A stretch of DNA of 64,000 bases from an uncultured bacterium. GTDB taxonomy: Bacteria > Eisenbacteria > RBG-16-71-46 > CAZHEV01. Position numbers and translations under genes: made by a program. Where the stretch lies: NCBI GenBank assembly GCA_964531335.1, contig CAZHEV010000012.1, positions 34,866-98,865 on the forward strand, given 5' to 3'. Below the pieces are notes generated by a model that saw nothing but the letters and a program-made list of their open reading frames with translations, was not told the origin of the DNA and did no database searches. Position 1 is the stretch's first letter. Each line of letters starts with the position of its first letter. Positions 12,411 through 52,996 of the stretch are shown piece by piece.

Positions 12411-15158
<2,748 letters not shown>

Positions 15159-31301: not shown

Positions 31302-31583
31302 TCAAAACCATTATATCACCTTGGAAGCAGCATCGTCAAAGGACGTGTGTGTTTGAGCGCCGATGGCTGCTATAATCGATTGCGTGCGGGCCGCGCGGCG
31401 TTCGCGAGCGCCGACACGGCTGCCCCGGGCGTGAGCCGGGCGGGGCCGGCCGATGGCCCGTTTTGGTGGCGCTCATTCGACAGAGGCGTCGTGCGGCAGG
31501 ACCGTCGCCGTCGCGCCGAAGGTCGCACGCGCCCGGCCGATAATGATTCCGGGGGGCTTCCAACCGATGAAATTAGGTTAGTG

Positions 31584-33503: not shown

Positions 33504-33509
33504 TAAGCC

Positions 33510-33549
33510 GCCCCGGGCGACGGGACCGACTCGCGGCCTGTCCCGGGGC
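33510..33549 (+). terminator. GC-rich hairpin after asnB (weak terminator candidate)
   Basis: GCCCCGGG (33510-33517) pairs with CCCGGGGC (33542-33549) across a 24-nt loop and is followed by TTTG. It has no long U-tract. Confidence 0.25.
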
Positions 33550-33660
33550 TTTGAAAAAAGCGAAGCGGGGGGAGCATCCCGGGCGCGGCGCGGGGGTAAG
33601 CTCAGAGTCGGAGATCGCGCGGCGGGATGAAGACAGGGAGGAAGAAAGGAGCCTTGCAGA

Positions 33661-34599: not shown

Positions 34600-34610
34600 A
34601 GCCGCGGTCG

Positions 34611-36329: not shown

Positions 36330-36330
36330 T

Positions 36331-37317: not shown

Positions 37318-37353
37318 ATATCTATGTATCGGCCCGCGGCGTCCGCGGTCCTA

Positions 37354-38463
37354 TCAAGGCTCCTCTCCGGCCTCAGCCGCCAGGTGATAGACGGCCATCG
37401 CCAGATTCGCAGGGTAGGCGCGCGCGTCGCTCAGGATCCTGTAATCGCCGAAGGAAAACGGCAGGCTCCCGTCGGGCCTCTGCACGCCCAATGTCCACTC
37501 GTAGCCCTTTCGCGACAGTTCCCGGTATTCTCCCAGGCCCCATCGCGTGGCGCACGAAAGCGCATAGGCCAAGGTGTGGGCGTGATAGATGACGCGCGGA
37601 AGCTCGCTCTTGCAGCTATACCTGCAAGCCCCCTCGCCCGTGACCCCGCCCGCCAGAAAAGGGGCCATCTTGGCGGCGATGGACCGGGTCTCCAGGCGCT
37701 CCTTCCTCTTCCAGGAATGATAGAGATCTATCAGTTGAAACGCGTTGTACTGGTAACACTGGTAATGAGGGACGGAGCGGTCGTAGCCCTCCCCGGGGAC
37801 CTCGTAGGGCATCTCCCCGGTCTCTGTCTGCACGTCCTGGAGAAAGGCGAGCAGGGGGTCGGCCATCTTCATCGGCGCGGGGTCGTCCGAGGCGTCGGCG
37901 AGCTCCGAGAGAAACCAGAGCGCGGCGGTGGAGTTATTGGGCACCTTGCCGCGCGGCACGTTGAAGTAGTTGACCGCCGCTCCTTTTGCGCCGTGGCTCT
38001 GGTAACCTATGCGACCTTCCATGAACCTCCACCAGGCCACCGCCGCGTCCAGGCACTTCGCGTCGTCGGTCCGCCTGTATGTGGCCAGCAGTCCCGCGCC
38101 CGCCCAGAGCCCCTCTATGTTGGTCACCAGGTGGCGCCGCTCCGGCATGGGGCTGGGCCAGCTTCCGTCATCGCGCTGGCCTTCCATGCAGAAATCGCTC
38201 GAGGCCATGGCTATCTCGGCGAACCGGTCGTCCTTCGTGAGCCTGTGAAGTAGCCAGTTGCCGAGGATCCAATAGCCCTGGCCCTGGTAGGAGACGACGT
38301 CGTCCCTCCAGGGCAAGAAGGTCGTATATCCCTTGACGAACCGCCAGAACCTGAGGTTCCAGCGAACGCCCGGGGTGGGGCCGCGGAGGGCCTTGCCGTC
38401 CCAGTGCTCCCCCACGAGGTACTGGTGGAGCCTCAGGGCGGACTCGAGGAGGTTCTCTTTCAT
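37354..38463 (-). CDS. hypothetical protein, possibly an (alpha/alpha)6-toroid fold (terpenoid cyclase/prenyltransferase-like repeats)
   Basis: A 369-aa ORF with good coding appearance. The repeated DGSWP / PDGSLPF motifs resemble alpha/alpha-barrel repeat proteins. Function unknown. Confidence 0.6.
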   Translation of the reverse strand: MKENLLESALRLHQYLVGEHWDGKALRGPTPGVRWNLRFWRFVKGYTTFLPWRDDVVSYQGQGYWILGNWLLHRLTKDDRFAEIAMASSDFCMEGQRDDGSWPSPMPERRHLVTNIEGLWAGAGLLATYRRTDDAKCLDAAVAWWRFMEGRIGYQSHGAKGAAVNYFNVPRGKVPNNSTAALWFLSELADASDDPAPMKMADPLLAFLQDVQTETGEMPYEVPGEGYDRSVPHYQCYQYNAFQLIDLYHSWKRKERLETRSIAAKMAPFLAGGVTGEGACRYSCKSELPRVIYHAHTLAYALSCATRWGLGEYRELSRKGYEWTLGVQRPDGSLPFSFGDYRILSDARAYPANLAMAVYHLAAEAGEEP

Positions 38464-38782: not shown

Positions 38783-41782
38783 GTGAGACTTGTCAGAGTT
38801 TTTGTCTCATCTCCGGGAGACGTCCAGGAGGAGCGCAGGGTCCTGGAAGAGGTGGTGGACTCAGTTAACGGCGACGTCGGCGAGAGGCACTCCGTCTTCC
38901 TGAAGCTCTTTCGGTGGGAGAAGGACGTCGTTCCGCGGATAGGGCCCGCTCCTCAGGAGGTAGTGGACGCCCAGGCTCCCTATTGCGACATCTTCCTTGG
39001 GATCATGTCCGGCCGGTTCGGGACTAGAACGGGCAAGTGGGGCTCCGGGACGGAGCACGAGTTTCGCCAGGCGGTAGAGAGGTGGGGGAGGAGCGATTCC
39101 CCCTGGATCCTTTTCTACTTCGACGACGAGCCGCCGACACCGAAGACGCGTGATGCGGCCATGCAGTTCGCCAAGGTTTTGGAGTTTCGCGAGGAACTCA
39201 AGAAGCTCGGGATTACGGGCAGCTACAAAGGCGTGCAGGGCGACCGTTCTTCGTTTGCCTGGCAAGCCGGCGAGCACCTGCGCCGGATCGTGCTCAATCA
39301 TCTGCCGCCAATTGAATCGGGGGAAGGCGCCGGGGCGAAAAGACCGGCGCCCGGCCACATGGTAGAGGCCGGACTCAAACCACCTGCCGTTCCAAAGGCG
39401 TACCGCGACTGGCTATGTTCCCAGTGCTCGGAGATCGGCCTCCTGGGTCTCGAGCTCAAGCAGTCCCACGCCGTAAGGCTCAGCCATGTGTACGTCCCGC
39501 TATGCACTCACGCTGTCTCCGAAAAGAAGCGCGGCGAGCGTTCCCGCCGTGAAGACGAGCGCTTCCTGACCGACATGCCCGGGCGTGAGGCCAAGCCGCG
39601 GTTGCTCCTTGATCTTCTCGGGAAGGAGTCCCTCTACGTTCCCGGGGCGCCGGGGGCGGGCAAGTCGACCTTCTGCCGGTGGGTGGCGTGGCTTGTTTGC
39701 AACGCTGACATGCCTTCCTACATAACCGAAGCCGCGGACACCCCGGAGGGCTACGCTGAGAGCTTTCCCAGCGCCTTTGGCGGGAGACTCCCGGTCCTGA
39801 TCAGGCTGCGCGAGTTCTGGGAGTACCTGCCACGCTCGCCGGGTCGATGCGAGATGACAAAGGACGAGCTGGATAGAGCAATCGGAGAGTGGTTCGAGAA
39901 CAAGACGCCCAAGGGCATCGAATGGACCGGCGGCAGCGGGCGGGCGGACCTTGCGACTCATATGGAGCAGGGCTCGGCGATCCTGATATTGGACGGGGCC
40001 GACGAGGTGCCGCTCTCCGGCGAAGAGAAAAGGCCCTGCTCTCCGCGTGCGATGCTCCTGTCGGGCCTCGCCTCGGCCGTACCGTCATGGATGAAGACCG
40101 GCAATCGGGTCCTGCTGACGAGCCGCCCCTACGGGCTGGGCACTCGGGAGTCCGAGACGCTGGGCCTTAGGCAGGCGCCCATAGTAGAGCTGGACCCTGA
40201 CCTCCAGAACCTTCTCATTATACGCTGGTTTGCGATCCTTGAAGGTGACTCCGCTACCGGCGAGGAGGTGGCCCGGGAGATGATCACGCACATACGCGGT
40301 CGCAACGACATAGATCCTCTTGCCTCAAATCCGATGCTCCTCACCGCGATGTGCGTGATATACGGCGAGGGCAAGCGCCTACCCCAGGATAAGCACGATC
40401 TCTACACGCGTATCGTCAACAACGTGCTGTACAACCGGTTCCACCGCGATCCGACGCTTATCGACCCGGTCCGCAACCGTCTCGCCGTCGTTGCGCACGG
40501 AATGCACACAGGTGAAGCTCTCGAAGAGGACAGAACAGCTCCCCAGGTGGAGGCGACGAACGAGGAGATAGACATAATCCTCCGGGACTACCAGGACAAC
40601 GTGCCGTTTACCGAGTCCGCCTTCGTGGACGCCGTCCAGGCGCGCGAGCAGCTTCTGGCCGAGTCCGGGCTGCTGCTGCCCCGCGGGGAGGGCAGGGCGG
40701 GGTTCTACCACCTCTCCTTCCAGGAGTTCCTCGCCGCACAGAGGCTCATGGAGCTGGATGCAGCACGCCTCCGGGAGGTATTCCGAGAGCGAGCGGAAAC
40801 CTCCGAGTGGAGAAACACTCTTTCGTTCCTGTTCAGCTCAAGACTGGCCGGATCGGTGTCCCCGGAGGGGAGCACCAGGTTGCTGGCGGAACTGCTGAGC
40901 GAAGTCTCCGTTGAGAAGCTCGGGCTGCACGTGGTCGTGGCGGACTGTTTTCAAATACTGCTGGGAAAGGGGATCCGGCTTCCGGAGGCTCTCGAGGAGA
41001 AGTTCCGAAAGGACTGCCTGAGCGCGATCAAGGCGGAGGTCTCCATTCCCGAAAGGGTGCATCTCGGGCTGGTGCTGGGGCAGATAGGCCACCCCAGAAT
41101 TGTGACGGATCTCAGGGACAGGGCCGCGTATGTGGAGGTGCCGCCAAAGCGGTATTTTGTGGGCGAGAAACGAAAGCGTTTTGATTTGAAAGAGAGTTTT
41201 CTGCTCTCGCGATATCCGGTGACCAACGGGCAATATGCGGTCTTCGTTGAAGAAGAGGGATACAAGGATCGGAAGTGGTGGTCTGATGAGGGATGGAAGT
41301 GGCGTGAAAGTGAAGACGTCCGCGAACCCGGCTACTGGCACGATCGTACCTGGAATGGTCCCACTCAGCCGGTCGTGGGCGTATCGTTCTACGAGGCGGA
41401 GGCGTTCGCGCGCTGGGCCGGAGGCCGTCTGCCCGCCGAGAGGGAATGGGAAGCGGCGGCACGAGGGCCGGAAGGATACGTCTATCCCTGGGGGGACGAC
41501 TGGGAGGAAGGTATCTGCAACAGCGATGAGTCCGGCGTCGGCGCCACAACGCCGGTCGGCCTCTTCCCTCGGTCTCGGTCGGCGCCGTTCGAGCTGGAGG
41601 ACATGTCGGGCAACGTGTGGGAATGGTGCTCGGATTACTATGACCCGACGGGGTCGCCCGGAGCCCGTGTTCTGCGCGGCGGTTCCTGGATCTATGGATC
41701 GAGGGGCCTGCGCGCCGCCATTCGCCTCAGGGGCGTCCCCGTCCTCCGGGTCGTCAGCATAGGATTTCGGGTTGTCTTGTGA
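38783..41782 (+). CDS. DGR target 1: NLR-like STAND NTPase (DUF4062/TIR-like N-domain, NACHT, HEAT-like linker, C-terminal FGE-type C-type-lectin fold carrying VR1)
   Basis: A 999-aa ORF starting at GTG 38783, with GGAGG upstream. The N-terminus reads VRVFVSSPGDVQEERR...CDIFLGIMSGRFG...ILFYFDD. Walker A GAPGAGKST is at 39644-39670 and Walker B ILILDGADE at 39980-40006. The FGE/SUMF1-like domain spans about 41129-41779 (YPVTNGQY...VVGVSFYEAEAFARWAGGRLPAEREWE...GNVWEWC...RGGSW...IGFRVVL). Confidence 0.93.
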   Translation: MRLVRVFVSSPGDVQEERRVLEEVVDSVNGDVGERHSVFLKLFRWEKDVVPRIGPAPQEVVDAQAPYCDIFLGIMSGRFGTRTGKWGSGTEHEFRQAVERWGRSDSPWILFYFDDEPPTPKTRDAAMQFAKVLEFREELKKLGITGSYKGVQGDRSSFAWQAGEHLRRIVLNHLPPIESGEGAGAKRPAPGHMVEAGLKPPAVPKAYRDWLCSQCSEIGLLGLELKQSHAVRLSHVYVPLCTHAVSEKKRGERSRREDERFLTDMPGREAKPRLLLDLLGKESLYVPGAPGAGKSTFCRWVAWLVCNADMPSYITEAADTPEGYAESFPSAFGGRLPVLIRLREFWEYLPRSPGRCEMTKDELDRAIGEWFENKTPKGIEWTGGSGRADLATHMEQGSAILILDGADEVPLSGEEKRPCSPRAMLLSGLASAVPSWMKTGNRVLLTSRPYGLGTRESETLGLRQAPIVELDPDLQNLLIIRWFAILEGDSATGEEVAREMITHIRGRNDIDPLASNPMLLTAMCVIYGEGKRLPQDKHDLYTRIVNNVLYNRFHRDPTLIDPVRNRLAVVAHGMHTGEALEEDRTAPQVEATNEEIDIILRDYQDNVPFTESAFVDAVQAREQLLAESGLLLPRGEGRAGFYHLSFQEFLAAQRLMELDAARLREVFRERAETSEWRNTLSFLFSSRLAGSVSPEGSTRLLAELLSEVSVEKLGLHVVVADCFQILLGKGIRLPEALEEKFRKDCLSAIKAEVSIPERVHLGLVLGQIGHPRIVTDLRDRAAYVEVPPKRYFVGEKRKRFDLKESFLLSRYPVTNGQYAVFVEEEGYKDRKWWSDEGWKWRESEDVREPGYWHDRTWNGPTQPVVGVSFYEAEAFARWAGGRLPAEREWEAAARGPEGYVYPWGDDWEEGICNSDESGVGATTPVGLFPRSRSAPFELEDMSGNVWEWCSDYYDPTGSPGARVLRGGSWIYGSRGLRAAIRLRGVPVLRVVSIGFRVVL

Positions 41783-41860: not shown

Positions 41861-41887
41861 GCAAGTGCTTTGCGGGACTACACAGCT

Positions 41888-42265
41888 ATGCCGGAAGCCT
41901 CCTCGGAAATGTTGTTGATTACGAAAATGTATGACTTCGTGCTGTGGAGCTGCCGGCACATCGCCAAGTTTCCGCGAAGCCACCGTTTCACTCTCGGCGA
42001 CAGGATGGAGGTCCGACTGTACGAGTTGCTCGAGCTTTTTCTGAGGGCGAAGTATTCTCGTGATCGGCTTCCAACTCTGCGGAAGGCCAACATGGAGCTG
42101 GAGCTACTTCGCTTCCAGTTTCGTCTCGCGAAGGACTTGGAGTGCCTTTCGGTGAAAAGCTACGGCTGCTCCTCACGCACTGTGAATGAAATCGGCAAGC
42201 TACTGGGCGGGTGGGTCAAGAAAGCCTCCGCGAAACCGGTGCAAACCCCAAGGCGGCAACCATGA
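41888..42265 (+). CDS. avd: DGR accessory variability determinant (Avd; four-helix-bundle / 23S rRNA IVS-protein family)
   Basis: ORF 41870-42265 (TTG); ATG 41888 or 41909 is the likely start. The sequence LLITKMYDFVLWSCRHIAKFPRSHRFTLGDRMEVRLYELLELFLRA...LELLRFQFRLAKDL matches the helical FP-(K/R)-x-x-(R/K)-(F/Y)-x-L-G-D-(Q/R) pattern of this family. Its position immediately upstream of the RT also fits. Confidence 0.85.
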   Translation: MPEASSEMLLITKMYDFVLWSCRHIAKFPRSHRFTLGDRMEVRLYELLELFLRAKYSRDRLPTLRKANMELELLRFQFRLAKDLECLSVKSYGCSSRTVNEIGKLLGGWVKKASAKPVQTPRRQP

Positions 42266-42297: not shown

Positions 42298-43362
42298 GTG
42301 AGAAGACAAGGCGGCATCTGGGAGGAGCTCATTAGCTTCCCGAATCTTCTGCGGGCGGCCCAGAAGGCCGCCCGCGGCAAGCGGGCTCGGTCGAACGTGG
42401 CTCGGTTCCACCTGGACCTGGAAGGGCAGCTCTGTCGGCTCCAGGACGAGCTTATCGCGAAGACTTACCTTCCGGGTCAGTATCGAACCTTCGCGATACA
42501 TGAGCCGAAGGCCCGCACTATCAGCGCCGCACCGTACCGGGATCGTGTCGTCCATCACGGCCTTTGCCAAGTGCTGGAGCCGGCATTCGAACGTCGGTTC
42601 ATCTTCGACAGCTACGCGTGCCGCAAGGGAAAGGGGACTCATGCGGCGCTGGCCCGCTTCACGCAGTTCGCCAGAAGAAACCGCTACGTCCTCAAGTGCG
42701 ACGTTCGAAGGTACTTCCCGTCTATCGACCATGAGATCTTGAAGGGACAAGTCCGAAGGAGGATCAAGGACCGGGACGCCCTGTGGTTGGTCGATCTGAT
42801 CGTCGATCATTCCAATCCACAGGAACCTGTGTGCGACTGGTTTCCCGGAGACAATCTGCTCACGCCTTCAGAGCGGCGCCGTGGTCTTCCGATTGGCAAC
42901 CAGACAAGCCAGTTCTTTGCCAACGTCTATCTCGATCCGCTGGACCACTACGTCAAGGAGCGGCTGCGAGCGCGCTACTACATTCGCTACGTCGACGACT
43001 TTGTTGTCTTCGGGGATGACAAAGAGTGGCTCTCAGACGTGCGGGATCGGTGCGCGGGGTTCGCTCGCGGCCTTCGTCTGGCTCTACACGAGCGAAAGTG
43101 CGTGATATCCCGCACCTGCGATGGTACGCGATTCCTCGGTTTTCGCGTCTTCCCTACTCACAGGCTGCTCGCGCGGGAGAACGTCGCCCGGACGAGGCGG
43201 CGGCTCCGGTGGCTTGGGGGCGAGTTCGCCGCGGGTCACGTGTCGGCGGCTGATGTGAGCCGCCGCATTATGAGCTGGATAGGGCACGCTCAGCACGGAG
43301 ATACATTCCGCTTGCGCTCCAGGCTCTTCAGGGAGAATACTTTCTCACGGAAGGGCGAGTAG
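42298..43362 (+). CDS. DGR-type reverse transcriptase
   Basis: A 354-aa ORF starting at GTG. RT motifs include [50 protein letters not shown] (the [ILV]GxxxSQ variant that I recall as DGR-specific) and [12 protein letters not shown] (YxDD). Confidence 0.95.
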
Positions 43363-43427: not shown

Positions 43428-43561
43428 CGTGTTCTGCGCGGCGGTTCCTGGAACAATGAATCGAGGAACATGCGCGCCGCCATTCGCAACAGGAACAACC
43501 CCGACAACCGGAACGACAACATAGGATTTCGGGTTGTCTTGTGAATTGGCGTCAGTACTCC
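43428..43561 (+). repeat. DGR template repeat (TR) with IMH*-like 3' end
   Basis: This non-coding copy lies 66 nt downstream of the RT stop and is rich in AAC triplets. In the target frame it would read [38 protein letters not shown]. It is the adenine-bearing parent of VR1 and VR2. Confidence 0.92.
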
Positions 43562-43718
43562 ACATGGAAGCTTCGGGCATGGCAATTGCGTTGTCCAAGG
43601 AGGGCCGGAGCCGGCCGATTCACGGATCGGACGGGAGCGCCCCCGTGGGAGTCCAGACCGCCGTCCGGCGTCGGCCGCATGGCCCGGGGCCTCAGTCGGC
43701 CGGCCGAAACAACAAACC

Positions 43719-43763
43719 GTCCCGCGGGGACTGGTAGGCCCCGGCCGAAGGCCCCCGCGGGAC
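43719..43763 (+). other. strong GC-rich stem-loop downstream of the TR
   Basis: GTCCCGCGGGG (43719-43729) is the perfect reverse complement of CCCCGCGGGAC (43753-43763), across a 23-nt loop. It lies about 160 nt after the TR end and about 65 nt before the ATPase gene. Confidence 0.6.
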
Positions 43764-43826
43764 TCGTCAAGAGCATTCGTTCTAGCGCGATCTGAAGGAA
43801 GACGCCGCATGAGGAGGGCGGAAGGG

Positions 43827-45056
43827 ATGCTGAGCAAGGAAGATGAGGGTCTTCTGAAGAAGGCACTGAACGTCTTTGACCCGGCGCGTCCACTTGAGGG
43901 CGAGCTGTTGGACAGCTTCTACATTTCTAGGCCCCATGCGCCCTTGAAGGCAATGAAGGCCTATCTCCGTGCCAACCAGAGCCCCGTCAAGGTGCTTTTC
44001 TGCGGTCACAGGGGTTGCGGGAAGTCAACGGAGCTTGCGCGTCTGGCAAAGGATCTGGAAAATGAGTTCTTAATTGTCCCGGTCTCGGCCCGATCGCTCG
44101 ACCTGGCCGATCTCACCTATGTCGATGTCATCCTTGCCTCCGCGGCGGGATTGTTCCTCCAGGCAAGCTCGGTGAAAGGCGCGGCTAGGATCAAGTCAAG
44201 CGTGCTGAAAGACGTGCTGGAGTGGCTTGGGAGCGAGATCGTCCGGGAAACGACGGTGTCCGTCTTGAAGTCGGGAAATATGGGCGCGAAGCTGAGTGTT
44301 TTGATACTCAGCCTCCAAGGCAAGTACTCGAGTGAGACGACCACGCGCAAGACGGTGAGAGACCGCCTGTATCGGCAGGTAAGCGACCTCATTCAGCGCA
44401 TGGATGCCGTATGCGAAGAGCTGGAGAAGAAAGGCGTTCCGCCGCTGATACTCTTTGAAGATATAGACAAGGCGGATCTGGAGAGGGCACGAGGTCTGTT
44501 CGTAGAACATAGGAACACCATGATCAGCCCGGCATGCAGGATAATCTATACTTTTCCGATTTCATTGAGACATTCACACGAGTTTCCGGCCATTCGACGT
44601 GACTACAGCAAGGTGTTCTCTCTCCCAAACATCAGTATCAACGAGAGAAATGGTTCGATCGACGCGCGGGGGCGTGAGGCCATAGGGTCCGTGATTACAC
44701 GAAGAATCCCGGGGGAAGTCTTCGAGAAGAAGGCCTTCGATTCCATTGTGGAATTGAGCGGAGGACTTATGACGGACCTGGTTCGCCTTGTCTCGGATGC
44801 CGCCCTTATCGCCTTGACCGAAGGATCCTCGCACATTACAAATGAGATAGTGGAACGTGTCGAGGCTGAGATGGCTAACGACTACCGTAGGATTCTTGTG
44901 TCCGAGCACTATGATGCGTTGAGGCGCTCACTCAGTGAAAAAGAGTTCGTTGCCGACGATGTGACCCGCGAATTGCTGGCGAACCAAAGCCTTCTTGAAT
45001 ATCGCAATAACAAAGTGTGGTGCGACGTACACCCCATTGTTCGAGGGTTGTTGTGA
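43827..45056 (+). CDS. P-loop AAA+ ATPase (ORC/Cdc6-like or STAND-related), function unknown
   Basis: ORF 43809-45056 (ATG at 43809 or 43827). Walker A is FCGHRGCGKSTEL and Walker B is PPLILFEDIDKAD, followed by an alpha-helical C-terminal half. The stop TGA (45054-45056) overlaps the ATG of target 2 (45056). Confidence 0.85.
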   Translation: MLSKEDEGLLKKALNVFDPARPLEGELLDSFYISRPHAPLKAMKAYLRANQSPVKVLFCGHRGCGKSTELARLAKDLENEFLIVPVSARSLDLADLTYVDVILASAAGLFLQASSVKGAARIKSSVLKDVLEWLGSEIVRETTVSVLKSGNMGAKLSVLILSLQGKYSSETTTRKTVRDRLYRQVSDLIQRMDAVCEELEKKGVPPLILFEDIDKADLERARGLFVEHRNTMISPACRIIYTFPISLRHSHEFPAIRRDYSKVFSLPNISINERNGSIDARGREAIGSVITRRIPGEVFEKKAFDSIVELSGGLMTDLVRLVSDAALIALTEGSSHITNEIVERVEAEMANDYRRILVSEHYDALRRSLSEKEFVADDVTRELLANQSLLEYRNNKVWCDVHPIVRGLL

Positions 45057-48000
45057 TGGGAACTAGGATCGATATGGATGCGCCGCTACAGCGGCTGGTA
45101 ACCTTGCTGAAGAACCTCGAGGAGGGAGCGATAATCTTTGCCGTCTATGATATGGCGGACGTTCCAGGTCGAGCTATCGGAGCTCTCAGAGCCCTGCTGG
45201 AGGGCCGCGTTCTGGAGCTCCGCATCGACAGGGAGCACAGAAACCCCGTCGATCTGGTTCGTTCTGCTGATGCGCGAAAGGGCGACGTGCTTTGCGTCCT
45301 GAACCTGGAGGAGGGCTTTCCGGACGCATTGGGCTATCTGGATCTTCAGCGGGAGGAGCTATTGGAATTCGGTGTGCCGGTCGTGATCTGGGTGACGCCG
45401 CACGAGCACCGCGAAGTAATAAGAAGAGCCCCGAACCTATACAGGTTCAGGAAAACGCTTGTGGACTTCAGGAGGGCCGGCTCCGAGGGACCACTTGAAT
45501 CCCGATCCGTACCCAAGGTCTTCATCTCGTCGACTGTAGAGGATCTGCGGCCGTATCGCGAGGCGGCGCGGGACGCGGCCATCAACGCGGGCTTCTTCCC
45601 TGTGATGATGGAGTATTTCACGGCCGTCGGCAGACCCCCGCTCGATGAGTGCATGGGCAAAGTGTCCGAGGCCCACCTGGTCGTAGTTATCCTCGCGCAT
45701 CGCTACGGGTGGGTCCCGGATGACCAGCCGGCCGGTGGAGACAAGAGTATCACCTGGCTTGAATGTGAGAGGGCGGAGCAGGAAGGCAAGGAGGTCCTGG
45801 CGTTTATCGTCGATGACGCCCGGAGTTGGCCCGAGGAGCGCCGAGAGGAGCACGATCTGGCTGTCGCCGCGAGAGAGAGCAAAGCGACCCCTGAGTTGCT
45901 GGAGAGGGTCCAGACAAGAGTTGCACGCCTGAGGCAGTTCAAGCGCTGGCTGGACGGCCGCGGGGTGCGCGTGACATTCACGACGCCCGAGGACCTGCAC
46001 GGGAAGATCTCGAATGCCCTGCACGCCTGGAGAAGCCGACATCCGGGCTTGGCCCAGAGTGCGGCCAAAACGCCCGCCCTGCCCGCCGACCCTGCGCGGT
46101 ATCTGAAGTACGTTCGGGAACAGACGGCGTACATAGACATCCGAGGGCTTCAGGTGGGCAGCGGCAAGGTCTTCCGATTTCCCATAGAGGACCTCTATAT
46201 CACTCTCACGACCACGGCCTCCGCGGAGACGGCTAAAGAGGAGAAGCGCAAGGGCAGGAAGGCGCGCGATGAGGCGGACCCCATGATGTCTCGCAGGGAC
46301 TCGTCCGTTCCTCTTCACAAGGCCCTGGCGAAGCGCCGGCTCGTGGTGGTCGGCGATCCCGGCTCCGGCAAGACGACGTTTCTGAGACGCGTCGCGTCCA
46401 CGCTTTCCCAGACGGCGCTCGGCGAGGTTCCCGACGCGGCGAAGAGTCGGCTGGGTCTGGCGGGAAAGCCGCTTCCGGTATTCGTCCGGCTGGTAGAGCT
46501 CGCCGAGCACATCGAGGAGAGTCGCCGCGTCCACGGCGGTCGGCGTCCATTGGCTCGCGACGCCGCTCGATGGCTGCCGCACTTTCTGGCATCCACAACC
46601 GAGGACGGGGGGCATGGGCTTGACGAGGAGTACTTCCGGGAACGCTTGGAGAAAGGCGATTGCGCGATCCTTCTCGACGGGTTGGACGAGGTCCCCACCC
46701 GTCCTTCTCGCGAGGGGATGTCCCGGCTCATAGAAAGGCTGGCCGGCGCCTATAAGGGCTGCATCCTCGTGGTCACCAGCCGCCCCGCCGCGTACACGGG
46801 GGAGACGGTGCTCCCCGGCTTTACACACGCGCGGATCGAATCGCTCGAAGAAGAAGCAATCGCAACCTTCCTCGGGAAGTGGTCGGGCGCTCTCTGTCCT
46901 GAGAGCCCCGGCGAGGCCGAACGCCACCGCGACGAGCTTGCGGGGGCTCTGACAAGCCGCCCGGAGATAAAGCGCATGGCGCGGAACCCGGTGATGCTCA
47001 CGGCGCTTGCCGTGGTCCATTGGAACGAGAGGCGGCTCCCGGAGCAGAGGGCGGATCTCTACCAGTCGATCATAAGATGGCTGTCCAGATCCCGCGAGCA
47101 GCGCTCTGAGAGGCTCCCCTCGGACAGATGTGTCGCCGTGTTGCAGGAGCTCGCCCTGGCCATGCAGAGTCACCCCGAAGGCCGCCAGGTCCAGGTGACG
47201 AGGCGATGGGCGGCGGAGGCGATCGCCGTCGAGCTCACCGGCGAGGGAGCGCAGCGCGCCGTGGCGGAGGCGCCCTCGGTGCGCGAGACCGCAAGATATG
47301 GCGCAGATGACATGAAGCCCGCGGGCGAGCCGTCGAGGCACGCCATAGAGCTGGCAGAACGCTTCCTCGAGGAGGAGGAGCAAGACAGCGGGATAGTGGT
47401 AGGCCGCGGAAACGAGATCCGCTTCTGGCATCTCACCTTTCAGGAATACCTGGCGGCGCGGGCTATTGCCGCCCGCTCCGAGGCGGAGCAGAAGGCGCTA
47501 CTTTTCGGCGATAGTGACAGAATCCACCGCCCCGACTGGCGCGAGGTCGTCCTGCTGCTGACTGGGGTGTTGCACCAGCAGGGCAGACAAAAGGTGGATG
47601 GGTTCGTATCCCAGGCGCTCGACATGATCGGAGAGAGGCCGAGCCTCTCCCGTCAGGCGCGGTGCGCCGGTCTTCTGGGCGCCCTTCTCCGCGATCTGGC
47701 CCCCCTGGACTATAGGATTTCCGACGCAAGATATCCGAAGCTCCTCGATACGGTCATGGGCGTATTCGACGCGAAGCGCTCGAGGTCGGTTTCCATTGAG
47801 GAGCGCGTCGAGGCGGCGGAGGCGCTGGGCCAGGCGGGCGACCCCCGACTGAACATGAACGATCCCGATCGCTGGATACACATACCCAAGAAGCCCTTCC
47901 TCATGGGAGCTCAGAAAAAGGATCCAACGAAGCCCGGTTACGATCCGGGGGCTGACGATGACGAGGCGCCGGTGAGGACAGTAAACCTCGATGCCTACCG

Positions 48001-48598
48001 GATCGGGCGCTACCCGGTGACGGTGGAGGAGTACGAGCGGTTCGTCGAGCACGGGGGCTACGAGGAGAAGCGTTGGTGGAAGGAGGGGGGCTTCGGGCAG
48101 TTCGCCGAGCCGGGGGACTGGGAAGAACAGCTCGCACACCCCAATCGCCCTGTTGTGGGTGTGAGTTGGTATGAGGCGGCTGCGTACGCGGCGTGGGCGG
48201 GGTGCGGGCTTCCCACGGAGGCTCAGTGGGAGAGGGCGGCCAGGGGCACGGACGGCCGAAAGTACCCCTGGGGGGACGATCCGCCCGATCCCGCCAGATG
48301 CAATTACGAAGAGACCAGGCTTGGACGCGCGACGCCCGTGGGTGTCTTCCCGCTGGGCGCGACACCGGAGGGCGTTTGCGACATGGCCGGAAACGTCTGG
48401 GAGTGGTGTCAAGATTGGTACAGTGAGGCATACGAGCCCGGCCGGCTTGACAACCCTCGGGGGCCTGACAGAGGGACACTTCGTGTTCTGCGCGGCGGTT
48501 CCTGGGGCTATGTATCGTGGAACTTGCGCGCCGCCATTCGCGGCGGGGGCAACCCCGGCGACCGGCTCGACGACCTGGGGTTTCGGGTTGTCTTGTGA
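45056..48598 (+). CDS. DGR target 2: NLR-like STAND NTPase (unknown N-module, DUF4062, NACHT, HEAT-like linker, C-terminal FGE-type C-type-lectin fold carrying VR2)
   Basis: ORF 45017-48598. ATG 45056 overlaps the upstream stop (ATGA). The DUF4062-like region KVFISSTVEDLRPYREAARDAAINAGFFPVMMEYF...ILAHRYGWVP...ITWLECERA...VLAFIVDD spans about 45515-45830. Walker A GDPGSGKTT is at 46352-46378 and Walker B ILLDGLDE at 46667-46690. The FGE-like domain spans about 47873-48595 and ends ...RGGSWGYVSWNLRAAIRGGGNPGDRLDDLGFRVVL. Confidence 0.93.
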   Translation: MGTRIDMDAPLQRLVTLLKNLEEGAIIFAVYDMADVPGRAIGALRALLEGRVLELRIDREHRNPVDLVRSADARKGDVLCVLNLEEGFPDALGYLDLQREELLEFGVPVVIWVTPHEHREVIRRAPNLYRFRKTLVDFRRAGSEGPLESRSVPKVFISSTVEDLRPYREAARDAAINAGFFPVMMEYFTAVGRPPLDECMGKVSEAHLVVVILAHRYGWVPDDQPAGGDKSITWLECERAEQEGKEVLAFIVDDARSWPEERREEHDLAVAARESKATPELLERVQTRVARLRQFKRWLDGRGVRVTFTTPEDLHGKISNALHAWRSRHPGLAQSAAKTPALPADPARYLKYVREQTAYIDIRGLQVGSGKVFRFPIEDLYITLTTTASAETAKEEKRKGRKARDEADPMMSRRDSSVPLHKALAKRRLVVVGDPGSGKTTFLRRVASTLSQTALGEVPDAAKSRLGLAGKPLPVFVRLVELAEHIEESRRVHGGRRPLARDAARWLPHFLASTTEDGGHGLDEEYFRERLEKGDCAILLDGLDEVPTRPSREGMSRLIERLAGAYKGCILVVTSRPAAYTGETVLPGFTHARIESLEEEAIATFLGKWSGALCPESPGEAERHRDELAGALTSRPEIKRMARNPVMLTALAVVHWNERRLPEQRADLYQSIIRWLSRSREQRSERLPSDRCVAVLQELALAMQSHPEGRQVQVTRRWAAEAIAVELTGEGAQRAVAEAPSVRETARYGADDMKPAGEPSRHAIELAERFLEEEEQDSGIVVGRGNEIRFWHLTFQEYLAARAIAARSEAEQKALLFGDSDRIHRPDWREVVLLLTGVLHQQGRQKVDGFVSQALDMIGERPSLSRQARCAGLLGALLRDLAPLDYRISDARYPKLLDTVMGVFDAKRSRSVSIEERVEAAEALGQAGDPRLNMNDPDRWIHIPKKPFLMGAQKKDPTKPGYDPGADDDEAPVRTVNLDAYRIGRYPVTVEEYERFVEHGGYEEKRWWKEGGFGQFAEPGDWEEQLAHPNRPVVGVSWYEAAAYAAWAGCGLPTEAQWERAARGTDGRKYPWGDDPPDPARCNYEETRLGRATPVGVFPLGATPEGVCDMAGNVWEWCQDWYSEAYEPGRLDNPRGPDRGTLRVLRGGSWGYVSWNLRAAIRGGGNPGDRLDDLGFRVVL

Positions 48599-48615
48599 AT
48601 TGGCGTCAGGACTCC
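48482..48615 (+). repeat. DGR variable repeat 2 (VR2) plus IMH-like 3' end
   Basis: Aligns to TR 43428-43561 at offset 5054. There are 19 differences, all at TR adenines (hand alignment). It includes the target 2 stop codon at 48596-48598. Confidence 0.92.
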
Positions 48616-48967: not shown

Positions 48968-49939
48968 ATGCGAGTTTTTGTAACCGGCGTGTCAGGCTTC
49001 GCCGGAAGCCACCTGGCGGAGCTCCTTCTTGCCGGCGGGCATGAGGTTCACGGCTTTACGGACGATCCGTCCCTCGACGACAATCTTGCGCCGCTTGCGG
49101 GCCGCGTGAAGATCTCGAAGGGCGACATCCGCGATCGCCGGGCTGTCCGCTCGGCTCTCTCCGAGGCGAGACCGGAAAGAATATACCATCTGGCCGCGGT
49201 CACCCCGGGCAGGGGCCACCCGAAGGACGAGCTTTTCTGGGAGGTCAACGTGGGCGGCACGGCGATCCTGCTCGATGAGGCCTCGCGGCTGGAGCGGGTC
49301 AAGGTCTTGGTGGCCGGATCGAGCGCCGAGTACGGCCTGATCCCCAGGAAGGACAATCCCCTCACGGAGGCGGCGGAGCTTCGCCCCATGGGGGTGTACG
49401 CGGTCAGCAAGGCGGCTCAGACGCTCCTGGCCTTCTCATACTGGGCCCATCAGGGAGTATGGGTTGTAAGGACCCGGGCGTTCAACCACACGGGGCCGCG
49501 CGAGGACACAGGCTTTGTCTCGTCCACCTTCGCGCGGCAGGTGGCCGCGGCGGAGGCCGGCGCCGCCGAGCCCGTGATTCGGGTTGGCAATCTTAGCGCC
49601 TACAGGGACATAGCCGACGTTAGGGACATAGTGAGGGGCTACGTCGCCGCCCTGGAAGGGGGTAGGGCCGGAGCCCTGTACAATATTTGCTCGGGCATCC
49701 CCACGCAGGTCCGGGAGGTTCTGGACAGGCTGGTTGCCATGTCCGAGAGGCCGCTCAGGGTTGAGGTGGACCGGGATAGGCTGAGGCCCTCGGATCTGCC
49801 CTTCCAGCAGGGCGACTCGTCCCTTCTCGAGAAGGAGACCGGCTGGAAGCCCGAGATCCCCCTGGAGAGGACCATCGGGGACCTACTCGAGTACTGGAGG
49901 CTAAGGTTAAGAAAAGAAACGGGATCAACACGCCGATAA
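48968..49939 (+). CDS. NAD-dependent nucleotide-sugar epimerase/dehydratase/reductase (SDR; GDP-4-keto-6-deoxymannose reductase-like)
   Basis: A 323-aa ORF with MRVFVTGVSGFAGSHLAELL and GVYAVSK (YxxxK). Confidence 0.85.
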   Translation: MRVFVTGVSGFAGSHLAELLLAGGHEVHGFTDDPSLDDNLAPLAGRVKISKGDIRDRRAVRSALSEARPERIYHLAAVTPGRGHPKDELFWEVNVGGTAILLDEASRLERVKVLVAGSSAEYGLIPRKDNPLTEAAELRPMGVYAVSKAAQTLLAFSYWAHQGVWVVRTRAFNHTGPREDTGFVSSTFARQVAAAEAGAAEPVIRVGNLSAYRDIADVRDIVRGYVAALEGGRAGALYNICSGIPTQVREVLDRLVAMSERPLRVEVDRDRLRPSDLPFQQGDSSLLEKETGWKPEIPLERTIGDLLEYWRLRLRKETGSTRR

Positions 49940-49968
49940 CGTAGGAAACCTCGGGAATAGGAGGGGCG

Positions 49969-50958
49969 ATGGACTGGTCTGGGATCAAGGTGCTGGTTAC
50001 GGGAGCCGGCGGCTTCATCGGAAGCCATCTTACCGAGCGTCTGGTCGCCGAGGGCGCTTCGGTGAGGGCCTTTGTCCGGTACAACTCAAAGGGCTACAGG
50101 GGATTCATCGATGATTTCCCCCCGCAGGTCATGGAGGCCCTGGAGGTGGTCGCGGGCGATCTGGGAGACTCGGATGCGGTGTACCGCGCCATGGAGGGCG
50201 TCGAGTACGTCTTCCATCTCGGGGCCCTTATAGCCATCCCTTACTCCTATGTCCATCCAAGGGACGTCGTCAAGACGAACGTGATGGGAACGCTGAACGT
50301 GCTGTCGGGCTGCCGCGACCACGGCGTCAAGAGGCTCGTGCACACGTCGACGAGCGAAGTGTACGGGACGGCGCAGTACGTCCCGATCGACGAGAAGCAC
50401 CCCCTCGTGGGACAGTCGCCTTACTCGGCCAGCAAGATAGCGGCTGATCAGATAGCGGAGAGCTTTTACCGGTCCTTCGACGTGCCCGTCGCGACGCTGC
50501 GACCGTTCAACACCTACGGGCCGCGCCAGTCGGCGAGGGCGGTAATCCCGTCGGTCATCAGCCAGGCGATAGGAAGGGACGTGGTCCAGGTGGGCGCGAT
50601 GCACCCCGTGAGGGATCTCACTTTCGTCTCCGATACGGTGCAGGGGTTTCTGCTGACCGCGGAGCGGGACGAGGCGGTCGGGGTGGTGACGAACCTCGGC
50701 TGGGGTACCGGCATCTCGGTCAAGGATCTCGTGGAGAAGATAGTGTCCATCGTCGGCAGGAAGGTGGAGGTCATGTTCGACGCCACCAGGCTCAGGCCCG
50801 CGAAGAGCGAGGTGGACAGGCTAATCGCCGACAGCACCCAGGCGAAGGCCAGGTTGGGCTGGGAGCCCAAGGTGGAGCTCGACGAAGGTCTCAGGCAGAC
50901 GGTGAAGTGGATCAGCGAGCACTTCGACATTTACAGTCCCTCGACGTACGCTGTCTAG
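49969..50958 (+). CDS. NAD-dependent nucleotide-sugar 4,6-dehydratase/epimerase (extended SDR)
   Basis: A 329-aa ORF with GAGGFIGSH, TSTSEVYG, YSASK and RPFNTYGPRQ. GGAGG lies upstream. Confidence 0.88.
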   Translation: MDWSGIKVLVTGAGGFIGSHLTERLVAEGASVRAFVRYNSKGYRGFIDDFPPQVMEALEVVAGDLGDSDAVYRAMEGVEYVFHLGALIAIPYSYVHPRDVVKTNVMGTLNVLSGCRDHGVKRLVHTSTSEVYGTAQYVPIDEKHPLVGQSPYSASKIAADQIAESFYRSFDVPVATLRPFNTYGPRQSARAVIPSVISQAIGRDVVQVGAMHPVRDLTFVSDTVQGFLLTAERDEAVGVVTNLGWGTGISVKDLVEKIVSIVGRKVEVMFDATRLRPAKSEVDRLIADSTQAKARLGWEPKVELDEGLRQTVKWISEHFDIYSPSTYAV

Positions 50959-50974
50959 GGGCCGGCTGCGGGAT

Positions 50975-51676
50975 GTGCCAATGGATGCTGTAGTCATGGC
51001 GGGCGGTAAAGGGACCAGGCTGCGGCCCCTTACATACGCGATACCCAAGCCGCTGCTTCCGGTGGGGGAGCGGCCCATACTGGAAATACTGCTCGGCCAG
51101 CTCAAGAAGAGCGGGTTCACGCGCGTGTACGTAAGCATCGGGTACAAGGGCGATCTCATAAGATCATATCTGGGCGACGGCTCGCGCCTGGGCGTTTCCG
51201 TGGAGTACGTGGACGAGCCGGAGGCTCTGGGGACGGCGGGCGCCCTGGCGCTCATAAAGGACCGTCTCAAGAGCCCGTTTCTGATGGCAAACGGGGATAT
51301 CTTGACGAAGCTCGACTTCGACAGGTTCTACGCCGAGCATGTTTCGGAGGGCGCGGCGATGACGGTGGGCTGCATCGAGTACAAGGTGCAGATCCCGTTC
51401 GGAGTCGTGAAAAGCGACAACGGTCTCGTGCGTGGAATAGCGGAGAAACCGACAACGACGCACCTGGTGGCCTCGGGCATATACGTGCTGAGCCCGGAGG
51501 CGCTGGAAGCCTTGGGCGCCCCCGAGCGCCTGGACGTCCCGGACCTCATGCTGGGCCTGGTCAGGCGCGGCAAGAAGGTGCGCACCCACGTTATCACGGA
51601 GCCCTGGCTGGACGTCGGAAAGATGAGCGACTACGAAAGGGCGACGCAAGAAGCGGCCTCATGGGGAGGCGTTTGA
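50975..51676 (+). CDS. sugar-phosphate nucleotidyltransferase
   Basis: A 233-aa ORF with the MAGGKGTRLRPLTYAIPKPLLPV signature. Confidence 0.9.
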   Translation: MPMDAVVMAGGKGTRLRPLTYAIPKPLLPVGERPILEILLGQLKKSGFTRVYVSIGYKGDLIRSYLGDGSRLGVSVEYVDEPEALGTAGALALIKDRLKSPFLMANGDILTKLDFDRFYAEHVSEGAAMTVGCIEYKVQIPFGVVKSDNGLVRGIAEKPTTTHLVASGIYVLSPEALEALGAPERLDVPDLMLGLVRRGKKVRTHVITEPWLDVGKMSDYERATQEAASWGGV

Positions 51677-51678
51677 GA

Positions 51679-52995: not shown

Positions 52996-52996
52996 G

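What the first reader, a model, noticed from the sequence alone, without database searches (positions are those of the whole stretch)
43827..45056. ORC/Cdc6-like AAA+ ATPase gene wedged between the TR and target 2, with an ATGA start/stop overlap and lower GC
A ~409-aa P-loop protein (GHRGCGKSTEL Walker A, LILFEDIDKAD Walker B, helical and winged-helix-like C-terminus) ends at TGA 45054-45056. That stop shares its A with the ATG of target 2 at 45056, which implies translational coupling and a stoichiometric partnership. Its composition differs from both targets. My hand counts of two 60-nt lines inside it (44041, 44521) give 52% and 43% GC, against 72% for line 46321 in target 2. A dedicated AAA+ partner for a DGR-diversified NLR is not part of the canonical DGR (target, avd, RT, TR) as I know it. 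It could be a co-sensor, a regulator or chaperone of the STAND oligomer, or a separately acquired gene. I consider this the least explained part of the locus.
Basis: partly seen in the sequence, partly recalled or inferred. Interest (0 to 1): 0.75.

Follow-up and report, generated by a model that had tools for sequence, protein, structure and literature searches.

The report
Conserved ATPase partner of receptor N-domain
The gene is real and encodes an AAA+ ATPase from a widespread, unnamed two-gene module whose second gene almost always starts with a matching ~140-residue domain; here that domain is fused to a hypermutating bacterial immune-type receptor, so the ATPase is that receptor's own partner, not a stray insert or part of the mutagenesis machinery.

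Summary
The ORF 43827-45056 (+, 409 aa) is real and intact. It is a P-loop AAA+ protein whose confident model (pLDDT 94.7) best matches archaeal Cdc6/Orc1. Its TGA overlaps the ATG of target 2 by one base (TGATG, not ATGA). GC is 0.541 against 0.619 for the window.

The main result concerns its partner. In 70 of 77 evaluable non-redundant loci from bacteria and archaea, the gene directly downstream on the same strand begins with a ~140-aa domain homologous to residues 1-141 of target 2. That domain matches no Pfam family. It models as a P-loop-less AAA+-like core.

The rest of the partner protein varies. Most are TPR-only. Seventeen of 70 carry a STAND NTPase (NB-ARC or NACHT), some with TIR/SEFIR, WD40 or FGE domains. 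Only one other locus (L057) has a DGR. Target 1 lacks the domain. The low-GC tract covers the ATPase plus this domain only.

So the ATPase is the cognate partner of the N-domain and is neither a DGR component nor a NACHT-specific factor. The ATPase+N-domain cassette was fused to a DUF4062(NADase)-NACHT-FGE receptor. The proposed mechanism is an active/inactive AAA+ heteromer that gates the receptor. That mechanism is inferred, not shown.

The parts
43812..43817 (+). Shine-Dalgarno-like AGGAGG, 9 nt before the ATG at 43827
   Evidence: Read from the sequence. This start agrees with homologue N-termini.
43827..45056 (+). AAA+ ATPase gene (409 aa): N-terminal helices, P-loop core with a ~100-aa helical insert (residues 98-201), lid, and a winged-helix-like C-terminus
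44004..44030 (+). Walker A, GHRGCGKST (residues 60-68)
   Evidence: G63, K66 and T68 are invariant in 44 relatives
44445..44471 (+). Walker B strand and following motif, LILFEDIDK (residues 207-215). E211 is nearly invariant; D214 and K215 are invariant.
44832..45053 (+). C-terminal winged-helix-like region (residues ~336-409) with the invariant hairpin motif E391, Y392 ... W398, D400. Net acidic.
45054..45058 (+). TGATG: the ATPase stop (45054-45056) overlaps the target 2 start (45056-45058) by one base. GAGGG lies 8 nt upstream.
   Evidence: In related loci the median estimated gap is 3 nt.
45056..45478 (+). N-terminal domain of target 2 (residues 1-141): a P-loop-less AAA+-like alpha/beta domain and the conserved cognate of the ATPase. 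R99 is invariant; A125 and F128 (the APDF motif) are nearly invariant.
45515..45775 (+). DUF4062 (NIR) domain of target 2, a predicted NADase effector
   Evidence: Pfam 5.2e-20. The function is taken from bioRxiv 10.64898/2026.09.04.749371.
46334..46882 (+). NACHT NTPase core of target 2 (residues ~427-609)
47870..48592 (+). FGE-sulfatase/CLec-type sensor domain of target 2, which carries VR2
   Evidence: Pfam 4.1e-57.
48482..48609 (+). VR2, the variable repeat at the 3' end of target 2
43428..43555 (+). TR of the DGR, about 270 nt upstream of the ATPase start (context only)

Best explanation
The ATPase is one half of a conserved two-gene module. The other half is the ~140-residue N-terminal domain of the protein encoded immediately downstream.

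Shown:
- The two are co-encoded in tight operons across Chloroflexota, Acidobacteriota, Methanosarcinales, Altiarchaeales, Nitrospirota, methanotrophs and others.
- They diverge in step with each other.
- They stay together while everything C-terminal to the N-domain is swapped. The swapped parts include TPR arrays, NB-ARC-TPR, TIR/SEFIR-STAND-WD40/TPR and NACHT-FGE.

In this window the cassette has been joined to a DUF4062(NADase)-NACHT-FGE receptor whose FGE domain is diversified by the adjacent DGR. Target 1 is a 31%-identical paralogue that lacks the domain, so presumably it does not use the ATPase.

Inferred:
- The N-domain is a degenerate AAA+ core without a P-loop.
- The active ATPase docks on it, forming an active/inactive AAA+ pair of the kind seen in clamp loaders and ORC.
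- ATP binding and hydrolysis then gate the conformational or oligomeric state of the attached receptor. This would set a threshold for, or reset, activation of the neighbouring NADase effector.
- The one-base stop/start overlap would keep the two proteins in fixed proportion.
For: Family:
- 679 relatives were found, nearly all ~410 aa and matched end to end.
- 300 relatives occur in species-representative genomes.

Pairing:
- In 70 of 77 evaluable non-redundant loci, the next gene on the same strand starts with the N-domain.
- The median gap is 3 nt. Of 69 pairs, 22 overlap and 25 are 0-20 nt apart (heuristic start assignment).
- No third gene is conserved in the neighbourhood.
- Three independent look-ups showed the same pair with NB-ARC/TPR partners.
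- The N-domain is N-terminal in 147 of the best 150 of 169 cluster representatives.
- Pairwise identities of the ATPases and of the N-domains correlate (Mantel r 0.82; maximum over permutations 0.135).

Partner diversity.
- L034 is N-dom+TIR+NB-ARC+WD40.
- P0132 is N-dom+SEFIR/TIR+TPR.
- L012 and P0151 are N-dom+NACHT+FGE.
- L057 is N-dom+TPR+NACHT+FGE with its own RT, Avd and TR/VR.

Composition: the low-GC3 tract covers the ATPase plus the N-domain only.

Structure:
- The ATPase model has pLDDT 94.7. Top matches are Cdc6/Orc1, RuvBL and TnsC.
- The N-domain model has pLDDT 80. The top matches inspected were AAA+ cores (RAD17/RFC1, a delta'-like protein, Clp, ORC subunits, E. coli delta), apart from a few Pif1-helicase chains.
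- The N-domain has no glycine-rich loop or Lys/Ser-Thr after strand 1.

Catalytic motifs of the ATPase are conserved.

Target 1 and the rest of the window hold no second copy of either part.
Against: - No direct evidence of physical contact exists. I could not run a complex prediction.
- The Mantel correlation is expected from co-inheritance alone.
- The N-domain model rests on a 10-sequence alignment. Its Foldseek E-values are marginal (4e-4 and weaker).
- Profile comparison finds no sequence similarity between the N-domain and the ATPase.
- One clade (Thermoflexus, 7 evaluable loci with downstream sequence; 2 short related contigs cannot be judged) has the ATPase without the N-domain.
- Most partners are TPR-only with no recognisable effector. 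The loci inspected are not obviously in defence islands. An immune role for the module as a whole is therefore not established.
- In the window protein the Arg of the SGGLMR lid motif is Thr. That column is variable in the family.
- The direction of control (inhibit, prime or reset) is unknown.
Confidence: 0.6

Rival explanations
1. Helper or output model. The receptor senses its ligand and exposes or clusters its N-domain. The N-domain then nucleates oligomerisation of the free ATPase, as NAIP nucleates NLRC4 or a sensor NLR activates a helper NLR. On this view the ATPase is the signalling output, not a regulator.
For: - The ATPase has the NOD-like layout of P-loop core, lid and winged helix, with no sensor or effector of its own.
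- AAA_16, nSTAND5 and ORC-CDC6-like hits occur in relatives.
- Most partners are N-domain+TPR with no effector, so the ATPase could be the only output.
- The same pairing evidence applies as for the main explanation.
Against: - The ATPase carries no recognisable toxic or enzymatic effector.
- Partners that have their own STAND NTPase and effector (TIR, SEFIR, DUF4062) already have an output.
- The winged-helix region is acidic, which argues against DNA binding as an output.
- hhalign to NB-ARC and NACHT modules aligns only the P-loop.
Confidence: 0.2
2. The ATPase is an unrelated gene that inserted on its own between the TR and target 2, and has no functional tie to the locus.
For: Its GC is lower than that of its neighbours.
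Against: - Its conserved partner domain is the first 141 residues of the very next gene.
- The low-GC tract includes that domain.
- The two genes share a stop/start overlap.
- No transposase or repeat flanks it.
Confidence: 0.04
3. The ATPase is an accessory factor of the DGR itself, for example helping cDNA synthesis, targeting or retrohoming.
For: It lies next to the TR in the window. It also lies next to a DGR in L057.
Against: - Only 1 of 77 evaluable loci with the ATPase has a DGR RT or Avd within 8 kb.
- The gene order relative to RT, Avd and TR differs between the window and L057.
- In both loci the ATPase keeps its position directly upstream of the N-domain gene.
Confidence: 0.02
4. 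It is a true ORC/Cdc6-type initiator or DNA-binding regulator, or a variant of the MoxR-vWA ternary conflict systems already described next to DGR targets.
For: - The best structural hits are Cdc6/Orc1.
- A published precedent exists for MoxR-like ATPases immediately upstream of DGR targets with uncharacterised N-terminal extensions (PMC10907252).
Against: - TM-scores are only 0.43-0.46 and sequence identity is 10-14%.
- The window protein reaches no curated Pfam or NCBIfam threshold.
- Neither the window protein nor the 44 relatives hit the MoxR models AAA_3 or AAA_5.
- There is no vWA or VMAP partner.
- The winged-helix region is acidic.
Confidence: 0.04

Closest known systems
MoxR-vWA 'ternary' conflict systems, and MoxR-like ATPases upstream of DGR targets (Kaur et al. 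2020, PMC7159879; Dore et al. 2024, PMC10907252)
   Same: - An AAA+ ATPase is encoded immediately upstream of a receptor whose N-terminal domain is the presumed docking or co-chaperone module.
- Both are found with DGR-diversified FGE/CLec sensors.
- Both are enriched in filamentous or multicellular prokaryotes.
- Both are proposed to set a threshold for activation.
   Different: - This ATPase is not MoxR: there are no AAA_3 or AAA_5 hits.
- The partner domain is an AAA+-like core, not vWA.
- There is no third (VMAP-type) component.
- Most members have nothing to do with DGRs.
nSTAND2 two-gene operon: an active STAND plus an inactive STAND fused to variable effectors (Kaur et al. 2021, PMC8195603, section 15)
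   Same: - Both are two-gene operons pairing an active P-loop NTPase of the Cdc6/ORC-STAND assemblage with a partner that has lost its NTP-binding motifs.
- In both, that partner is fused to variable modules.
- A hetero-multimer is predicted in both cases.
   Different: - Here the inactive part is only a ~140-aa core, without lid or winged helix, and sits at the extreme N-terminus.
- The variable parts here are mostly TPR or whole STAND receptors, not GT4 or HEPN.
- Whether the families are related could not be tested. No model or accession was available.
Archaeal Cdc6/Orc1 (PDB 1fnn, 2qby)
   Same: - Best structural match.
- Both have an AAA+ core with a helical insert after strand 2, a lid, and a C-terminal winged helix.
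   Different: - 10-14% identity and TM 0.43-0.46.
- The winged-helix region here is acidic.
- There is no replication context.
- It is always paired with the N-domain gene.
Clamp loaders and ORC as mixed active/inactive AAA+ assemblies (RFC1, Rad17, delta, delta')
   Same: The N-domain model matches the cores of these subunits best. The idea of an inactive subunit completing an assembly of active ones comes from these complexes.
   Different: - There is no clamp or DNA context.
- The N-domain lacks lid and collar domains.
- The resemblance is at fold level only.
Avs/bNACHT-type STAND immune receptors with a DUF4062 (NIR) NADase effector (bioRxiv 10.64898/2026.09.04.749371)
   Same: The body of target 2 (DUF4062-NACHT-sensor) has the effector-NTPase-sensor layout of these single-protein defence systems.
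   Different: - In those proteins the effector is at the very N-terminus and no partner ATPase is needed.
- Here an extra domain precedes the effector and comes with its own ATPase.
- The sensor here is DGR-diversified.

Membership tests
ORC/Cdc6 initiator AAA+ | AAA+ core, lid and C-terminal winged helix with overall fold similarity | tested here: met
   - Foldseek top hits are 1fnn (E 9e-8) and 2qby, but TM is only 0.43-0.46.
- Secondary structure fits this layout.
ORC/Cdc6 initiator AAA+ | Match to curated sequence models (Pfam ORC-CDC6-like, Cdc6_C, or NCBIfam equivalents) above threshold | tested here: not met
   - The window protein has no hit.
- 12 of 44 relatives hit PF24389 at E<=0.01, best 9.6e-6.
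- The profile against PDB sequences finds only P-loop and lid fragments.
ORC/Cdc6 initiator AAA+ | DNA-binding winged helix and an origin or replication context | tested here: not met
   - The winged-helix region is net acidic: mean -2.7, window -4.
- Neighbours are the N-domain gene and unrelated metabolic genes.
- DNA binding itself was not assayed.
MoxR-vWA ternary conflict system | MoxR-clade AAA+ (Pfam AAA_3 or AAA_5) | tested here: not met
   No such hit for the window protein or for 44 relatives
MoxR-vWA ternary conflict system | vWA co-chaperone domain on the partner, and a third VMAP, iSTAND or FtsH component | tested here: not met
   - The partner N-domain has no Pfam match in 55 members and models as an AAA+-like core.
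- Only two genes are conserved in the neighbourhood.
STAND NTPase (NACHT, NB-ARC, AAA_16 types) | NOD module: P-loop core, helical lid and winged helix, with sequence similarity to STAND models | tested here: inconclusive
   - AAA_16 scores 22.8 bits against a cut-off of 32.6 for the window protein.
- AAA_16 hits 35 of 44 relatives, nSTAND5 hits 9 of 44, and NACHT hits 1 of 44 at E<=0.01.
- hhalign to NB-ARC and NACHT modules aligns only the P-loop, with probabilities 87% and 69%.
- The Walker B 'E-x-x-D-K' and the lid 'GG(L/I)P/M-R' motifs resemble NACHT 'DGxDE' and NB-ARC 'GLPL'. This is my reading only.
STAND NTPase (NACHT, NB-ARC, AAA_16 types) | Fused sensor repeats and effector on the same polypeptide | tested here: not met
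   The protein is 409 aa and ends after the winged helix. Relatives are all ~410 aa.
nSTAND2 two-gene system (Kaur 2021) | Both proteins carry nSTAND2-type NTPase modules, one with eroded NTP motifs and fused to GT4 or HEPN | not testable with these tools
   - No profile or accession was available.
- Partners here show no GT4 or HEPN among the top families.
DGR (canonical components) | Regular co-occurrence with RT, Avd and TR/VR | tested here: not met
   RT and Avd occur near the ATPase in 1 of 77 evaluable loci, L057
Catalogued anti-phage defence systems (PADLOC-DB v2.0.0) | Match to a model of a known or candidate system | tested here: not met
   - For the ATPase family, only P-loop-level VakA hits in 5 of 44.
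- For the partners, only generic TPR models.
ATPase + N-domain two-gene module (defined here) | A ~410-aa ATPase followed on the same strand, within about 100 nt, by a gene starting with the N-domain (R-E and APDF motifs) | tested here: met
   - In the window: ATPase profile E 9e-166, N-domain profile E 2.8e-44, and a 1-nt overlap.
- In the family: 70 of 77 loci.

The most novel reading that the evidence does not exclude
The ATPase and the P-loop-less N-domain form a previously undescribed, portable 'active plus inactive AAA+' control cassette. It can be bolted onto the N-terminus of any TPR or STAND receptor.

On a DGR-hypermutated, NADase-armed NLR it would act as an ATP-dependent safety catch or reset. 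This would let the cell tolerate randomly generated and possibly self-reactive sensor variants. It would be a regulatory layer with no described counterpart in bacterial NLR-type immunity.
Probability: 0.2. Interest if true: 0.8.

Novelty: new variant of a known kind. Interest (0 to 1): 0.6.

Why it matters
Bacterial STAND/NLR-type receptors are usually treated as self-contained proteins. This locus points to a widespread two-gene cassette that supplies such receptors, and many TPR-only proteins, with a separate ATPase through a dedicated docking domain. At least 169 N-domain clusters were found at 50% identity, and about 300 species-representative genomes carry the ATPase.

If the pairing is physical, it gives a testable example of trans-regulation of NLR-like receptors in prokaryotes. 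It also explains the one unexplained gene in this DGR locus. Finally, it gives a name and boundaries to two unannotated families: the ATPase, and an N-terminal domain with no Pfam match.

For DGR biology it shows that diversified sensors are assembled by domain shuffling with pre-existing regulatory cassettes.

Tried and rejected
- Word-indexed protein search with the N-domain alone found nothing. With the N-domain alignment it found only 9 short proteins. The exhaustive representative search was needed.
The model therefore rests on 10 sequences.
- hhalign of the N-domain against the ATPase showed no similarity (probability 3.5%). The EAD-style idea that the same domain occurs in both proteins is rejected.
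- hhalign of the ATPase against the NB-ARC and NACHT modules of partners aligned only the P-loop. I do not file it as NB-ARC or NACHT.
- Profile searches against PDB sequences were uninformative for both parts.
- Promoter and terminator scans and RNA folding of the TR-to-ATPase spacer gave nothing above background (z -1.34). Whether the ATPase and target 2 form their own transcription unit is open.
- The metagenome scan with the window protein gave only 5 loci, none with the window's architecture.
- The only other contig with the identical protein is identical DNA, so it says nothing about VR turnover.
- The literature searches found no description of this pair. Only open-access texts were searched, so absence is not proof.
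Full report
**The observation**

The + strand carries an ORF that ends at TGA 45054-45056. Two in-frame ATGs are available, at 43809 and 43827. The second is preceded by AGGAGG at 43812-43817, and it gives a 409-aa product whose N-terminus lines up with homologues. I take 43827 as the start.

Walker A (GHRGCGKST, residues 60-68) and the LILFEDIDK strand (residues 207-215) are present and fall in invariant or nearly invariant family columns.

The stop shares one base with the ATG of target 2 (TGATG). It is not the four-base ATGA overlap named in the finding's title. This ATG, and not the GTG at 45017 that the ORF list reports, is the start supported by homologous partner proteins.

The gene has GC 0.541 and GC3 0.661 against 0.619 for the window, which is about the 5th percentile of windows of the same size.

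The surrounding DGR is real:
- Target 1 is at 38783-41782 (DUF4062-NACHT-FGE).
- Avd is at 41870-42265 and the RT at 42298-43362.
- The TR is at about 43428-43555.
- The two VRs differ from the TR at TR adenines within the repeat core, 23 positions each.

**What the protein is**

Curated models give only sub-threshold P-loop hits for the window protein: AAA_16 at 22.8 bits against a cut-off of 32.6, weak Sll1717-family and ATPase_2 hits, and nothing in PADLOC.

An AlphaFold2 model built from 44 relatives is confident (pLDDT 94.7, pTM 0.93). It shows an AAA+ alpha/beta core with a ~100-residue helical insert after strand 2, a helical lid, and a three-helix-plus-hairpin C-terminus.

Foldseek against the PDB ranks archaeal Cdc6 (1fnn, E 9e-8) and Orc1/Cdc6 (2qby) first. 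RuvBL1/2, TnsC and eukaryotic ORC/Cdc6 follow, at TM 0.4-0.46 and 10-14% identity.

Across 44 relatives, the Pfam hits at E<=0.01 are as follows:

| Pfam family | Relatives hit (of 44) |
|---|---|
| AAA_16 | 35 |
| AAA_22 | 27 |
| ORC-CDC6-like (PF24389) | 12 |
| nSTAND5 | 9 |
| KAP | 6 |
| DAP3 | 5 |
| MoxR models | 0 |

Profile-profile comparison with the NB-ARC and NACHT modules of partner proteins aligns only the P-loop. The winged-helix-like region is net acidic.

So 'ORC/Cdc6-like AAA+ fold' is a fair description. Membership of ORC/Cdc6, MoxR, NACHT or NB-ARC is not supported.

**The partner**

Three look-ups of relatives at 48-55% identity each showed a gene directly downstream encoding an NB-ARC/AAA_16-TPR protein. 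The first ~140 residues of those proteins are plainly homologous to the first ~140 residues of target 2. This stretch lies in front of the DUF4062 domain and has no Pfam match.

A scan of one genome per species returned 300 relatives, of which 80 loci were fetched. Results from those loci:
- With a profile of the N-domain, 70 of 81 non-redundant loci carry the domain at the start of the next gene on the same strand.
- Four of the other eleven have no downstream sequence. Seven are one genus, Thermoflexus, with a different neighbourhood. That gives 70 of 77 evaluable loci.
- By a heuristic start assignment, the median distance from the ATPase stop to the partner start is 3 nt. Of 69 pairs, 22 overlap and 25 lie 0-20 nt apart.
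- All-against-all clustering of neighbouring ORFs finds no third conserved gene.
- Pairwise identities of the ATPases and of the N-domains are strongly correlated (Mantel r 0.82; the maximum over 2000 permutations was 0.135). This shows co-inheritance without swapping, but it does not prove contact.
- Four distant metagenomic loci (28-29% identity) also keep the pair.
- An exhaustive search of 1.84 billion representatives with the window's N-domain alone finds 169 clusters. The domain is N-terminal in 147 of the best 150.

**What the N-domain is**

The alignment of 55 members shows an invariant Arg (R99, followed by Glu), a nearly invariant A-P-D/N-F motif, and alternating strand and helix segments. 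There is no glycine-rich loop or Lys/Ser-Thr after the first strand.

The model (pLDDT 80, from only 10 sequences) is a five-stranded alpha/beta domain. The top Foldseek matches I inspected are AAA+ cores, apart from a few Pif1-helicase chains. They are led by RAD17-RFC, a pol III delta'-like protein, RFC1, Clp ATPases and ORC subunits, with E. coli delta further down, at TM 0.5-0.64 and E-values of 4e-4 and weaker.

It has no detectable sequence similarity to the ATPase or to any PDB sequence. I read it as a degenerate AAA+ core that has lost its P-loop. This reading has moderate support.

**What is attached to the N-domain**

Of 71 partners, 58 contain TPR repeats, 10 match NB-ARC and 9 match AAA_16. 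Seventeen of 70 have a Walker A motif, and the median length is 516 aa.

Individual architectures:
- N-dom only (L043, 146 aa)
- N-dom+TPR
- N-dom+NB-ARC+TPR, which is the partner type of the window's closest ATPase relatives
- N-dom+NB-ARC+TPR+LigT-like domain
- N-dom+TIR+NB-ARC+APAF1_C+WD40 (L034)
- N-dom+SEFIR/TIR+...+TPR (P0132, the closest N-domain relative at 46% identity)
- N-dom+STAND+WD40
- N-dom+NACHT+FGE (L012 from Candidatus Amarolinea, and P0151)
- N-dom+TPR+NACHT+FGE (L057)

L057 also has an RT (E 5e-108 to the window's), an Avd, and a TR/VR pair with adenine-biased differences. However, its ATPase is only 33% identical to the window's and its N-domain only 23%, and its gene order differs. 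The two DGR-linked cases therefore look like separate joinings of this cassette to DGR targets.

No locus other than the window has DUF4062 after the N-domain.

**How the window's arrangement arose**

Target 1 and target 2 are 31% identical from the pre-NACHT region to the end. Target 1 starts directly with DUF4062 and has no N-domain.

GC3 by segment:

| Segment | GC3 |
|---|---|
| ATPase | 0.661 |
| N-domain of target 2 | 0.667 |
| DUF4062, NACHT and FGE parts of target 2 | 0.75-0.79 |
| Target 1 | 0.76 |

The simplest reading is that an ATPase+N-domain cassette was fused in frame to a DUF4062-NACHT-FGE receptor already served by the DGR. The cassette's nearest relatives serve NB-ARC-TPR proteins.

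The whole DGR locus sits inside a polysaccharide-biosynthesis cluster. No mobile-element genes lie next to the ATPase.

**Mechanism**

DUF4062 has recently been reported to be an NADase effector (NIR) of Avs-type defence proteins (bioRxiv 10.64898/2026.09.04.749371). The body of target 2 therefore has the effector-NTPase-sensor layout of a bacterial NLR-type receptor, with a DGR-diversified sensor. That class has been described before (PMC7159879, PMC8195603, PMC10907252).

The ATPase/N-domain pair adds something in front of the effector. My best account, which is inference, is as follows. The ATPase docks on the inactive AAA+-like N-domain. ATP binding or hydrolysis then controls the conformational or oligomeric state of the receptor. 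This would be a threshold or reset function, analogous to MoxR-vWA or TRIP13-HORMA pairs.

The main rival is that the N-domain nucleates assembly of the ATPase as a downstream helper.

The data do not support readings of the ATPase as a DGR accessory, a replication initiator, a MoxR variant or an unrelated insert.

**Novelty**

None of the following describes either family: Pfam (2025 copy), NCBIfam (2026), PADLOC v2, and the open-access literature I could search.

The closest published ideas are two. One is MoxR-like ATPases upstream of DGR targets with uncharacterised N-terminal extensions (Dore et al. 2024). The other is the nSTAND2 two-gene operon of an active and an inactive STAND module (Kaur et al. 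2021). The first is excluded by sequence. I could not test relatedness to the second.

I therefore rate this as a new variant of a known kind of system: an AAA+ partner plus a docking domain on a conflict-type receptor.

Noticed in passing
window 17300-20445: This is the lowest-GC stretch of the window (0.49-0.51 against 0.62). It is occupied by a 984-aa ORF (17491-20445, +, TTG start) with no Pfam hit at 1e-5. It may be a second foreign or unusual gene.
   Followed up: partly
window 31233-38463 and 48968-54172: The DGR locus is embedded in a polysaccharide or sugar-nucleotide cluster: asparagine synthase, carbamoyltransferase, two epimerase/dehydratases, a nucleotidyl transferase, a UDP-glucose dehydrogenase and a GT4 glycosyltransferase. 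No mobile-element genes are adjacent.
   Followed up: partly
window 38783-39220 (N-terminus of target 1): The first ~145 residues of target 1 (the DUF4062 region) match the PADLOC candidate-system model PDC-S60 at 6.6e-32. Target 2 does not match it.
   Followed up: no
L023-L030, L042 (Thermoflexus and relatives): This clade of the ATPase (~40% identical to the window's) has no N-domain gene downstream. Instead a ~640-aa predicted membrane protein and a ~190-aa membrane protein with a C-terminal CxxC...CxxC motif are conserved directly upstream. The ATPase may have a different partner here.
   Followed up: partly
L036 4878-7114: A 261-aa N-domain protein is followed by an ORF in another frame that overlaps its end. 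The FGE domain of that ORF is the closest match to the window's (3e-53). This is either a split or frameshifted N-dom...FGE fusion without a NACHT, or an assembly error. The contig ends 230 nt later.
   Followed up: no
L057 7863-17206: This is a second DGR-linked instance with a different gene order: ATPase, N-dom-TPR-NACHT-FGE (VR 13164-13311), RT, Avd, TR (14921-15068), then a second NACHT gene. The first target also contains a 120-nt tandem duplication at 9926-10165, in or beside its TPR region.
   Followed up: partly
L087 186-1444: The closest metagenomic relative of the ATPase (56% identity) is split by a frameshift near residue 200. This is either a pseudogene or a sequencing error.
   Followed up: no
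L092 (Logan contig SRR7048218_58293): This contig is identical to window 43526-48610. It breaks inside the TR at one end and just past VR2 at the other, as expected when an assembler stops at the DGR repeats.
   Followed up: yes
L003 13750-15365: About 4 kb downstream of one ATPase/N-domain pair lies an AAA_15/AAA_21-type ATPase gene followed by an overlapping 206-aa gene. It could be a separate defence-like pair. Otherwise the inspected neighbourhoods look metabolic.
   Followed up: no
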